Below, piece after piece: positions 60,001 through 63,000 of a stretch of 64,000 nucleotides of DNA. The stretch comes from Escherichia coli (GTDB lineage: Bacteria; Pseudomonadota; Gammaproteobacteria; Enterobacterales; Enterobacteriaceae), in assembly GCF_009931435.1 (NCBI RefSeq), contig NZ_CP043414.1. One strand, given 5' to 3'. Made by a program: the position numbers. Position 1 is the first letter of the stretch, and each line of letters starts with the position of its first letter.

Positions 60001-63000
60001 TACTCCAGCGGCTGCTGGTTGCCTCACATATAGCCGCGGCATCAGCTTCCATCCCCGCAGCCACGCGCCGAAGTTCTGCTGAACCGTTTTCGTGGACTCG
60101 AGTGAACCAACTGCTTAGATTTGATTTATTTGGGGTTTTCAGAATACGGTAGAACTCAAGTACTAGTTGCTGCGCTATTTTCAGCGCCGGTTCTTTTTCA
60201 CACATCAGACTAATAAATCGGGAAGCATAATTTTCTTCACCCCTGATTATTATCCAGGGCATCAACCAGCGGCTTACCCGGGACACTGAAGGAAGTCTGG
60301 CGGCAGTAGTAACTGGTGGGTTCCAGCCTTTACGCCATTTGGCAACAGCATCCCTGACGATGGTTTCACTGCCTGTAACCCCCGGGCCACCATTTCCCGC
60401 CATATCCAGTCGCTGGTGTGCTGAATTGGTCATGTATGAAGGAAGATATCAATGGTGGTATCTCCCTTTCAAAAGGAAGTGAAAAGCTTGATGCCTGCTG
60501 CCAGGCAATCAATATTACGTGCTTTTAACGACTATCCTAAATGGTGGTAGCTATGCAGAGCTCCCGGTCCTAGCGCTGGGAGCTTATCGCTTATCTTTAC
60601 CGTAAGCGTAAACGGACCGCCGTATGTAGCCATTAAACCAGTATTGGTAACGTAGATACCCACCTTTTCAAAAGGGAAGTGGATAAAAGATAGCGAAAAT
60701 GCGAAGAGTTGATTAATGCATTGAAACAAAATTCATTAATGATGAACTTGGAGAAAAGCTCCATCGTTTTATTGGCTCAAAAAACATATCCCATAGATGA
60801 TCAGCCATACCTTCATTGGTTAGCAAGGTATCCTGTGAGTAGCCATGGCTGAAGATGCCCATTGATGGGCGAAAACCAAGGATCTGACCGTTAGAGCAGT
60901 TATGTCGTTAAACACATCACCACCATATGCCATCCGGCTCACTTCGTCGGCCAAATTAGTGTGATATTCTTTCCAGAAATGCTGTTGTATCCACGACATA
61001 AGGCGATGATTGATGGAGCAGTCTCTCAATTTTGAAATGTTGCGCAGCCAGTGGCCGGAACTGGCTGAACTCGCGTGTATGGCGGAACGCTATGTTCACT
61101 CCGATCCGGAAAGTTGTCTGGTCAAGCTGCGCAACTACACTGAATTGATGGTGCGCTGGTTGTATCGTCAGGAGCGGTTGCCGGAAGGTATTAAGGCTAA
61201 TCTTTACGATTTAATGAATGCTGATGTCTTTACCAGCATGATGCCGGAAGCCATCATCATGAAAATGGATGCGCTGCGTATCCATGGCAACCGTGCCGCG
61301 CACGGCGGACGTATCAAAGCTAAAGATACTTACTGGCTGCTCAAAGAAGCGTATTTGTTGGGAATTTGGCTGTATGTTCGCTACGCCCACGGTAATGTTG
61401 ATGACTGCCCCAAATTTACACTCCCTCCATTAACACAATCTTCAGGTCGTGCAGATGAAAAACGTCTGGAAGATGCAATCAGGGCTCAGGATGAAAGCCG
61501 TGAGCGCGAACTGGCGCTGCAACGCGCACTACAGCAAGAACAGGAAAAGGCCGAACACCTCACTCAACGCCTGAATGAAGCCAGAGCGCGTAACCAGCAT
61601 GTTGCCGATATTCTCTCTATTGATGAAGCGGAAACCCGCCGTCGCCTGATTGACTCTCGCCTGCTTGCTGCTGACTGGAATGTAGGCGAAGGCCTTAAAA
61701 ATACCGATCAGGTTACGCAGGAACATCCCGTTAAAGAACAACCTACCGCGACCGGAGACGGTTATGCGGACTATGTCTTGTGGGATGAGGCACACAAACC
61801 GCTGGCGGTGGTGGAAGCAAAAAAAACCAGCGTCAATGCCGAGCAAGGACGAATTCAGGCCCGGCTGTATGCAGACTGGCTGGAAAAAGAATACGGCCAG
61901 CGTCCGATCATCTTCTACACCAACGGCTATGATATCTGGCTGTGGGATGACCATAAAACTCATGGTTATCCCCCGCGTCGGGTGTTTGGCTTCTACAGCA
62001 AGGAAAGCCTGCAATATCTTATTCAACAGCGTGAAACCCGTCTTCCGCTGAACAGTGTGCCGTACGTAAAAGATAACGAAGGTAAGGCCGTTGCCGGACG
62101 TTTGTACCAGCTTGAAACCATTGCCCGTGTCAGCGAGCGGTTTACCAACAAATACCGGCAATCGCTAATTGTTCAGGCTACGGGTACAGGCAAAACCCGC
62201 GTGGCAATAGCGCTAAGCAAACTGATGATTGATGCCCGCTGGGTAAAACGCGTCCTGTTTCTTTGCGACCGCAAGGAACTACGTAAACAGGCGGCGAATG
62301 CCTTTAATCAATTCACCAATGAGCCGCTGTATGTGGTCGGGAAATCGAAAAAAGCAGACAGGCAGAATGCTAGGATCTACATCGCCACCTATCCTGGTAT
62401 GATGAAAATCATGGACCATTTCGATGTTGGTTATTTCGATTTGATCATCGCCGATGAATCCCATCGCTCTATCTACAACGTTTACGGCGATCTGTTTAAG
62501 TATTTTGATGCCCTCCAGATTGGCCTGACGGCCACGCCGATTGACATGGTGAGTAAAACCACTTTCGGCCTGTTTGGTTGTGAAGGACGTATTCCTACCG
62601 CCAACTACAGCCTGGAAGATGCCATCGCCGATAACAATCTGGTTCCCTATGAGGTTGTCACGCACACCACAGAATTCCTGCGCGAAGGCATCAAACGGGA
62701 GAAATTAAGCGACGCACAAATCCGCGAGCTGGAAGAACAAGGCATAGATCCCAATACGCTGGAGTTTGATGGCAAGGCGCTGGATGAGGCGATCTACAAC
62801 AAAGACACCAACCGCTATATCCTGCGTAACCTGATGGAAAATGGCCTGAAAGATCGGGACGGCCAGTTGCCAGGTAAAACCATCATTTTCGCCCGTAACC
62901 ACAAACACGCGCTGCTGTTGAATGAATTATTCGACGATATGTACCCGCAGTTTGCCGGGCGCTTCTGCCAGGTCATCGACAATTACGATCCCCGCGCCGA

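What the first reader, a model, noticed from the sequence alone, without database searches (positions are those of the whole stretch)
60440..60700. Pair of ~25-bp direct repeats flanking a hairpin next to the ISL3 remnant
GGTATCTCCCTTTCAAAAGGAAGTG (about 60458-60482) and GATACCCACCTTTTCAAAAGGGAAGTGG (about 60656-60683) are similar direct repeats ~200 bp apart, with inverted repeat CTCCCGGTCCTAGCGCTGGGAGC between them. Could be IS/MITE termini or a recombination site that truncated the ISL3 transposase.
Basis: seen in the sequence. Interest (0 to 1): 0.3.

Follow-up and report, generated by a model that had tools for sequence, protein, structure and literature searches.

The report
Chance repeats across mobile-element scars
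The two look-alike 25-bp strings are unrelated: one is coding sequence in a broken toxin-immunity gene and the other spans a deletion scar at the stump of an insertion sequence, so this is ordinary island debris.

Summary
The strings and the hairpin are in the sequence, one base left of the coordinates given, but they are not a repeat unit. The interval is an E. coli island mosaic.

- 59844-60407: 3' remnant of ISEc38 (ISL3 family).
- 60408-60550: last ~47 codons of a 127-aa cdiI-type immunity gene. Repeat 1 (60457-60481) encodes G-I-S-L-S-K-G-S-E of it.
- 60558-60585: the hairpin, which is that gene's conserved terminator-like stem-loop.
- 60602-60671: the outermost 70 bp (GTAAGCG terminus) of an IS682-like IS66-family element.
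- From ~60672: the native upstream region of a type I restriction hsdR gene.

Repeat 2 (60655-60682) straddles the IS66/native deletion junction. Its left half is IS66 sequence and its right half is native sequence, as seen uninterrupted in E. coli W. Two strings with separate origins cannot be copies of one unit.

Their similarity (local score 27) beats 500 local shuffles. However, four other neighbouring 200-bp segment pairs in the window score as high. There is no third copy and no target-site duplication.

ISEc38 was truncated 50 bp left of repeat 1, at an ATCC microhomology.

The finding is ordinary and of low interest. One oddity is unexplained: in 11 genomes IS3 ends abut exactly 60457 or 60482, the two edges of repeat 1.

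The parts
59844..60407 (-). 3' remnant of ISEc38 (ISL3 family). It keeps an intact outer inverted-repeat end (about 59844-59885) and the C-terminal ~170 codons of the transposase (59891-60407). The N-terminal two thirds are lost.
   Evidence: About 95% nucleotide identity to annotated ISEc38 copies on plasmids over window 59844-60407. The alignment to ISEc38 of plasmid M8 ends at 60407. Pfam DDE_Tnp_ISL3 hit, E 7.8e-11. The two ends of the intact copy are inverted repeats beginning TCA(C/A)CGA..AGTGG(C/T)TCTTCCGCAAC. RefSeq annotates a partial transposase pseudogene here.
60404..60407 (.). ATCC microhomology at the deletion junction between the ISEc38 interior and the cdiI interior.
   Evidence: ISEc38 reads CCATATCC|GGCTGG. 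Intact cdiI of SCU-152 reads TTTTAAATCC|AGTCGCTGG. The window reads CCATATCCAGTCGCTGG.
60408..60550 (+). 3' fragment (from codon 81 to the stop TAG at 60548-60550) of a 127-aa cdiI-type immunity gene. It is dead here: the 5' end is missing and there is a +1 frameshift at 60494-60495 (GATGCCTGCTG against GATG-ATGCTG).
   Evidence: 97.4% identical to the 3' end of an intact 127-aa CDS in strain SCU-152, which follows an orphan cdiA-CT. The same protein family sits directly after full-length 3760-aa CdiA genes in other Enterobacterales and in PT-VENN orphan arrays. Homologues are all 127 aa at 54-99% identity.
60457..60481 (+). It is the coding sequence for G-I-S-L-S-K-G-S-E (residues 97-105) of the cdiI-type gene.
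   Evidence: Translation of the intact gene. The protein alignment has G97, G104 and E106 invariant. Orthologous DNA varies like coding sequence, GGTATCGCCATATCAAAAGGAAGTG in L017.
60558..60585 (+). It is a terminator-like stem-loop starting 7 nt after the cdiI stop codon.
   Evidence: dG -20.2 kcal/mol, z -3.45. The same stem-loop follows the gene in SCU-152, Pseudocitrobacter-type, Enterobacter ludwigii and Enterobacter mori loci. Changes there keep the pairing (C-G to G-U, G-U to G-C) and the tails are U-rich. In the window the tail is UUAUCGCUUAUCUUU, and the simple consensus scan did not call a terminator.
60602..60671 (+). Solo left end (IRL plus leader, 70 bp) of an IS66-family, IS682-like element. 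The outer terminus GTAAGCG is at 60602. The tnpA, tnpB and tnpC genes and the right end are deleted.
   Evidence: 88-94% identity to about 70 bp lying just upstream of tnpA in annotated IS66-family elements. In an intact IS682 the same GTAAGCG is the element boundary, with matching inverted repeats and an 8-bp duplication TCTTTCTC. Strain 447 shares this piece and everything to its right, but its left flank diverges exactly at GTAAGCG. It occurs once in the window.
60655..60682 (+). It is a chimera: 60655-60671 is IS66 leader sequence and 60672-60682 is native hsdR-upstream sequence.
   Evidence: The three-way alignment with IS682 and KA0011 loses identity after TTTTCAA. The alignment with E. 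coli W, S22EC and CH4794, which lack the IS66 piece, gains identity from CAAAGGGAGGTGGATA.
60669..60671 (.). CAA microhomology at the deletion junction between the IS66 interior and native DNA.
   Evidence: IS682 reads CCTTTTCAACTAG. E. coli W native reads GTACCAAAGGGAGG. The window reads CCTTTTCAAAAGGGAAG.
60672..61012 (+). Native 5' region of the type I restriction hsdR gene, whose CDS starts at 61013. It has a 147-bp deletion at 60764/60765 relative to other alleles.
   Evidence: Homologous at 85-98% to the hsdR upstream region of strain 447, E. coli W, S22EC and CH4794. RefSeq annotates a DEAD/DEAH helicase followed by HsdM and HsdS downstream.

Best explanation
The interval is not an element. 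It is a string of scars in an E. coli genomic island, and the two repeats resemble each other by chance. Reading left to right there are four pieces. The first is an ISEc38 (ISL3-family) copy that lost its 5' two thirds. The second is the last 143 bp of a cdiI-type immunity gene together with its own terminator-like hairpin. The third is a 70-bp stump of the left end of an IS682-like IS66-family element. The fourth is the native upstream region of a type I restriction hsdR gene. Repeat 1 is ordinary coding sequence inside the immunity-gene fragment. Repeat 2 arose only when a deletion joined the IS66 leader (...CCCACCTTTTCAA) to a purine-rich native stretch (AAGGGAAGTGGATAAAAG). Both internal junctions carry 3-4 bp microhomologies (ATCC and CAA), the signature of illegitimate recombination. 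The provenance of every piece, the exact junction positions and the conservation of the hairpin with the cdiI gene are shown directly. Three points are inferred: that the 127-aa protein is a CDI immunity protein (from gene position), that the hairpin terminates transcription, and that the order of events was IS66 insertion, then internal deletion, then ISEc38 insertion and deletion. Nothing in 60440-60700 is predicted to have a function of its own today.
For: The ISEc38 homology ends at 60407.

The segment 60408-60601 occurs in 267 E. coli genomes, never on plasmids, always at this locus. In SCU-152 it is the 3' end of an intact 127-aa gene.

That gene directly follows full-length cdiA in L017 and L018, and sits among PT-VENN orphan modules elsewhere.

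The hairpin is conserved with the gene across genera, with pair-preserving changes.

The segment 60602-60671 matches the left end of IS66-family elements. The terminus is proven by the inverted repeats and 8-bp duplication of an intact IS682. It is also shown by the flank switch in strain 447 exactly at GTAAGCG.

The native sequence without any IS66 piece in E. coli W, S22EC and CH4794 aligns from 60669-60672 onward.

The repeat similarity is matched by four other neighbouring segment pairs in the window. There is no third copy.
Against: The local alignment score of 27 exceeded all 500 shuffles of the two neighbouring segments. Taken alone, the resemblance is therefore nominally significant (about p 0.002 by my extreme-value estimate) and only becomes unremarkable after allowing for the whole-window scan. 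In all 11 genomes where the cdiI fragment is cut shorter, an IS3 end abuts exactly 60457 or 60482, the two edges of repeat 1. The chance explanation does not predict this. The immunity function and terminator activity are inferred, not tested. Pfam and NCBIfam give no family for the 127-aa protein.
Confidence: 0.9

Rival explanations
1. The two repeats are the ends of a small non-autonomous element (MITE or IS-derived) of about 225 bp, carrying the hairpin, that inserted next to the ISL3 copy.
For: The strings are alike beyond local shuffles, each is weakly palindromic, and the region is full of IS debris.
Against: The repeats are direct, not inverted. There is no flanking duplication. The unit is single-copy in every genome that has it, always at this locus, with no plasmid copy. 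The interior is demonstrably a gene's 3' end plus its terminator plus an IS66 end. Repeat 2 is split between two sources.
Confidence: 0.02
2. The resemblance is not chance. Repeat 1 or its surroundings is a preferred target for IS3-family transposition or IS-adjacent deletion, and repeat 2 marks a similar fragile sequence, so both are recombination hotspots of one kind.
For: Seven genomes join an IS3 end to 60457 and four join it to 60482, exactly bracketing repeat 1. These are all 11 left-truncated variants among 267 genomes. Repeat 2 contains a deletion junction. A further IS3-adjacent deletion in this island ends at 59394.
Against: There are only two events, possibly sequential: a 25-bp secondary deletion next to the IS3 end would give the same picture. 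The three IS3 junction targets share no motif. The junction in repeat 2 involves IS66 and a CAA microhomology, not IS3. Repeat 1 has no unusual fold (z -0.38).
Confidence: 0.05
3. The IS66 stump and repeat 2 encode, on the minus strand, an AfaR-like small RNA, with repeat 2 as its 5' hairpin.
For: Rfam AfaR hit on the minus strand at 60584-60680, 31.8 bits, E 0.0054. Repeat 2 aligns to the first AfaR hairpin.
Against: The score is far below the gathering cut-off of 100. Only model positions 26-124 of 234 match, without the AfaR promoter or terminator. Intact IS66-family left ends give the same or better sub-threshold hit (36.6 and 46.9 bits), so the hit reflects shared IS66 ancestry, not an sRNA gene. 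AfaR is described as specific to afa-8 clusters (PMC3664800).
Confidence: 0.03

Closest known systems
IS66 family insertion sequences (IS682 / ISEc8 / ISEc23 group)
   Same: 60602-60671 starts with the family's terminal GTAAGCG. It is 88-94% identical to the 70 bp between the left terminus and tnpA of annotated members.
   Different: Only 70 bp survive. There is no tnpA, tnpB or tnpC, no right end and no detectable 8-bp duplication. The piece cannot transpose.
ISEc38 (ISL3 family)
   Same: About 95% identity over 564 bp, including the outer inverted repeat and the transposase C-terminus. Pfam DDE_Tnp_ISL3 hit.
   Different: About two thirds of the element is deleted. The break is internal, at an ATCC microhomology, and not at a terminus.
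Orphan cdiA-CT/cdiI toxin-immunity modules of contact-dependent inhibition loci
   Same: The 127-aa gene whose 3' end is here occupies the cdiI position after full-length CdiA and in orphan arrays. It carries its own terminator-like hairpin.
   Different: In the window only codons 81-127 remain, and they are frameshifted. No cognate toxin gene is adjacent. Immunity function is inferred from position only, with no Pfam or NCBIfam family.
MITEs / solo IS termini pairs
   Same: Short length, a palindromic flavour and proximity to IS remnants.
   Different: The repeats are direct rather than terminal inverted repeats. There is no target duplication, the unit is single-copy, and the two ends have unrelated origins.
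AfaR small RNA (Rfam RF02515)
   Same: Minus-strand similarity to model positions 26-124, including the first hairpin.
   Different: 31.8 bits against a cut-off of 100. The same hit is given by any IS66-family left end. No promoter or terminator part of the model is matched.

Membership tests
   The two strings are in direct orientation. The inverted matches between them reflect only their internal TTTCAAAAGG palindrome.
   The flanks AATGGT|...|ATAAAAG share no duplication. The left flank is continuous cdiI coding sequence.
   The full unit is found once per genome (median 1) at the same locus in 259-331 of 5426 E. coli genomes. The left 194 bp has no plasmid match. There is no further copy in the window.
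IS66 family (remnant) | Terminus beginning 5'-GTAAGCG, homologous to the inverted repeat of known members | tested here: met
   GTAAGCGTAAACGGACCGCCGTATG at 60602 matches the IS682 left end. The IS682 ends and their TCTTTCTC duplication were verified.
IS66 family (remnant) | tnpA-tnpB-tnpC genes and a second inverted repeat | tested here: not met
   Homology stops 70 bp in. No second GTAAGCG-type end is in the window. It is therefore a remnant, not an element.
ISL3 family (ISEc38 remnant) | DDE_Tnp_ISL3 transposase and family-type terminal inverted repeat | tested here: met
   Pfam PF01610, E 7.8e-11. About 95% identity to ISEc38 including the outer inverted repeat.
CdiI immunity gene (fragment) | Small ORF immediately downstream of cdiA or a cdiA-CT | tested here: met
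   The gene starts at the base after the 3760-aa CdiA in L017 and L018. It follows a DUF6862 cdiA-CT fragment in SCU-152.
CdiI immunity gene (fragment) | Neutralises the cognate CdiA-CT toxin | not testable with these tools
   No experiment was possible. One source names a 91%-identical homologue 'Immunity protein 50', but Pfam and NCBIfam gave no hit.
Intrinsic (rho-independent) terminator | GC-rich stem-loop directly followed by a U tract | tested here: inconclusive
   The stem is strong and conserved. Orthologues have UCUUUU or UCUUCUUUCUU tails. The window's tail UUAUCGCUUAUCUUU failed the consensus scan.
AfaR sRNA (RF02515) | Score at or above the Rfam gathering threshold over the full model | tested here: not met
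   31.8 bits against 100, covering positions 26-124 of 234. Intact IS66 ends give the same partial hit.

The most novel reading that the evidence does not exclude
The 25-bp repeat 1 (and perhaps R1/R2-like purine-rich, weakly palindromic sequence in general) is a preferred landing or breakpoint site for IS3-mediated adjacent deletions. This would explain why both known IS3 junctions in this gene fragment fall exactly on its two edges. A weaker alternative is that the conserved solo IS66 end upstream of hsdR has been retained because it supplies a promoter or an antisense RNA.
Probability: 0.05. Interest if true: 0.3.

Novelty: already known. Interest (0 to 1): 0.07.

Why it matters
It matters mainly for annotation. 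RefSeq leaves 60408-61012 unannotated in hundreds of E. coli genomes. The interval can now be labelled as a cdiI 3' fragment plus terminator, an IS66-family solo left end, and the hsdR leader.

It also gives a worked example of a pitfall. Short look-alike strings next to IS debris can be chimeras made by deletion junctions.

The layout records island history. A contact-dependent-inhibition orphan array was overwritten by ISEc38, IS66 and IS3 activity next to a type I restriction-modification system.

A practical by-product is that sub-threshold Rfam AfaR hits flag IS66-family left ends rather than sRNA genes.

Tried and rejected
- I searched the 194-bp segment 60408-60601 against plasmids and found no match.
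- I searched the 127-aa protein and the upstream cdiA-CT fragment in Pfam and NCBIfam. The 127-aa protein has no family.
- I scanned 60300-61100 for promoters and terminators. There was no plus-strand promoter. The only minus-strand hit (60472-60443) is below the shuffle expectation. The hairpin was not called a terminator.
- I looked for a third copy of the repeat core and for a second IS66 end in the window and found none. One of my patterns had a wrong spacer length and is uninformative.
- I assumed the window was strain W2-5 because of a round coordinate offset. The W2-5 annotation upstream does not match the window's ORF and tandem-repeat layout. The 11.6 kb compared differs at 470 positions, starting at its left end. 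I therefore used W2-5 only for the local annotation around the finding.
- I rejected the AfaR sRNA reading after intact IS66 ends gave the same hit.
- I looked for a common motif at the three IS3 junction targets and saw none.

Full report
**Observation.** The sequence contains GGTATCTCCCTTTCAAAAGGAAGTG at 60457-60481 and GATACCCACCTTTTCAAAAGGGAAGTGG at 60655-60682. The inverted repeat between them is real and forms an 11-bp stem at 60558-60585 with dG -20.2 kcal/mol, z -3.45.

The best gapped local alignment of the two strings scores 27. It has 22 matches, 1 mismatch and 4 gap columns. None of 500 dinucleotide shuffles of the two adjoining ~200-bp segments reached that score (mean 16.7, sd 2.4, max 26).

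I then applied the same test to every pair of adjacent 200-bp segments of the window. Outside a genuine tandem array, there are four other places with scores of 27-29. The repeat finder sees only two 11-13-nt gapless pieces, no better than five other families in the same 600 bp. The resemblance is therefore there, but it is of the strength that a 64-kb read-through turns up a handful of times.

**What lies left of the repeats.** The minus-strand ORF 59891-60433 has a DDE_Tnp_ISL3 domain. The DNA from 59844 to 60407 is about 95% identical to ISEc38, an ISL3-family element annotated on many E. coli plasmids. The pairwise alignment with an intact copy holds from the outer inverted repeat to 60407 and then collapses. 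The two ends of the intact copy confirm where the element's terminus is. ISEc38 was therefore cut internally at 60407/60408, 50 bp before repeat 1.

**What repeat 1 is.** The next 194 bp (60408-60601) occur in 267 of 5426 complete E. coli genomes, once each as a rule. All are chromosomal, with none on plasmids. In strain SCU-152 this stretch is the 3' end of an intact 127-aa gene that directly follows an orphan cdiA-CT fragment downstream of cdiA.

Homologues are all exactly 127 aa and 54-99% identical. They come from Enterobacter, Pseudocitrobacter, Serratia, Buttiauxella, Erwinia and Aeromonas. In two loci the gene starts at the base after a full-length 3760-aa CdiA that has TPS, Fil_haemagg_2, PT-VENN and DUF6862 domains. 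Elsewhere it sits among PT-VENN orphan modules. By position it is a cdiI-type immunity gene. One source calls a close homologue 'Immunity protein 50', but Pfam and NCBIfam gave no hit, so the function is inferred.

Repeat 1 encodes residues G-I-S-L-S-K-G-S-E of this protein. In orthologues it drifts as coding DNA does. In the window the gene is dead. It starts within codon 81 and has a +1 frameshift at 60494-60495. The ISEc38/cdiI junction lies in a shared ATCC.

**The hairpin.** The stem-loop begins 7 nt after the cdiI stop codon (TAG, 60548-60550). The same stem-loop follows the gene in SCU-152, in the loci with full-length cdiA, in Enterobacter ludwigii and in Enterobacter mori. Substitutions there preserve pairing and the tails are U-rich. 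It belongs to the immunity gene and looks like its intrinsic terminator. In the window the tail is poorer in U, and the consensus scan did not call it.

**What repeat 2 is.** A sensitive search showed that only window 60594-60672 is widely repeated. It is found in 3344 of 5426 E. coli genomes, up to 22 places per genome, and on 1640 plasmids. In annotated examples the match lies immediately upstream of tnpA of IS66-family elements such as IS682.

In an intact IS682 the element starts at the same GTAAGCG. It has a matching inverted repeat at the other end and an 8-bp duplication, TCTTTCTC. So 60602 is a true IS terminus, and 60602-60671 is the outermost 70 bp of an IS682-like element. Strain 447 carries the same stump and the same hsdR, but its left flank is entirely different and diverges exactly at GTAAGCG.

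Identity to the IS stops after TTTTCAA at 60671. From 60669-60672 onward the window aligns instead with the hsdR upstream region of E. coli W, S22EC and CH4794. These have no IS66 piece and read ...GTACCAAAGGGAGGTGGATAGAAAA....

Repeat 2 is therefore a chimera. Its left 17 bp are IS66 leader and its right 11 bp are native DNA, joined at a CAA microhomology by the deletion that removed the rest of the IS.

**Conclusion on the pair.** Repeat 1 predates the island rearrangements as part of a conserved gene. Repeat 2 came into being only through a deletion junction. They cannot be two copies of one unit. The pair also fails each MITE or IS-terminus criterion. The repeats are direct rather than inverted, there is no target duplication, and there is no other copy.

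The specific proposals were not.

**The Rfam hit.** A sub-threshold AfaR match lies on the minus strand at 60584-60680 (31.8 bits against a cut-off of 100, model positions 26-124 of 234). This turned out to be a property of IS66-family left ends in general. Intact ends score 36.6 and 46.9 bits over the same model positions. It is not evidence for an sRNA here.

**Loose end.** All 11 genomes with a shorter cdiI fragment have an IS3 right end abutting it. In seven the junction is at 60457 and in four it is at 60482. These are exactly the two edges of repeat 1.

IS3-adjacent deletions are common in this island. Strain 97-3250 has the same IS3 left flank as the window but its right end is joined to 59394. 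The three junction targets share no motif. I regard the 25-bp coincidence as most likely two nearby events or a secondary deletion, but I could not show that.

**Verdict.** This is ordinary island debris made of known kinds of element. The repeat pair is a chance resemblance. Interest is low.

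Noticed in passing
window 60457 and 60482; L008:4980-5000, L009:4980-5000: In all 11 E. coli genomes where the cdiI fragment is shorter, an IS3 right end (…TGGGTAAGATCA) abuts exactly 60457 (7 genomes) or 60482 (4 genomes). These are the two edges of repeat 1. The IS3 left flanks differ between the two types.
   Followed up: partly
window 60584-60680 (-); L003:3497-3587 (-); L004:2992-3082 (-): Sub-threshold Rfam AfaR hits (31.8, 36.6 and 46.9 bits; model positions 26 to about 121-124 of 234) occur on the antisense strand of IS66-family left ends in general. This suggests that part of the AfaR model derives from an IS66-type end. The AfaR paper mentions only IS2 similarity at the 3' end.
   Followed up: partly
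window 19518-23560: There are 13.9 tandem copies of a 291-bp (97-codon) unit at 88% matches. They lie inside two long plus-strand ORFs (16041-20453 and 20450-25717) that look like one giant repeat-rich surface-protein gene split by a frame change.
   Followed up: no
window 60764/60765: There is a 147-bp deletion in the hsdR upstream region relative to strain 447, E. coli W, S22EC and CH4794. The missing piece contains a hairpin, AAAATACGACACAACCTGTCGTATTTT.
   Followed up: partly
L006:4780-5001 versus window 60380-60601: Strain 447 has the identical truncated 70-bp IS66 end and hsdR, but unrelated DNA to the left, starting exactly at the GTAAGCG terminus. Three substitutions in its stump match the IS682 consensus. 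This suggests flank exchange by recombination with another IS66 copy.
   Followed up: no
window 55749 / 59394; L002:4940-4960: Strain 97-3250 has the same IS3 left flank as the window, but its right end is joined to window 59394. That is an IS3-adjacent deletion of about 3.6 kb. It removes the thymidylate-synthase-like and XRE genes, an intervening hypothetical gene, and the start of the MazG-like gene.
   Followed up: partly
window 55852-59591: A block of thymidylate-synthase-like, hypothetical, XRE-family (with a C-terminal HEXXH-like motif) and MazG-like genes lies next to a dGTPase-family gene and a type I restriction-modification system followed by an AAA ATPase. This looks like a defence-island neighbourhood.
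   Followed up: no
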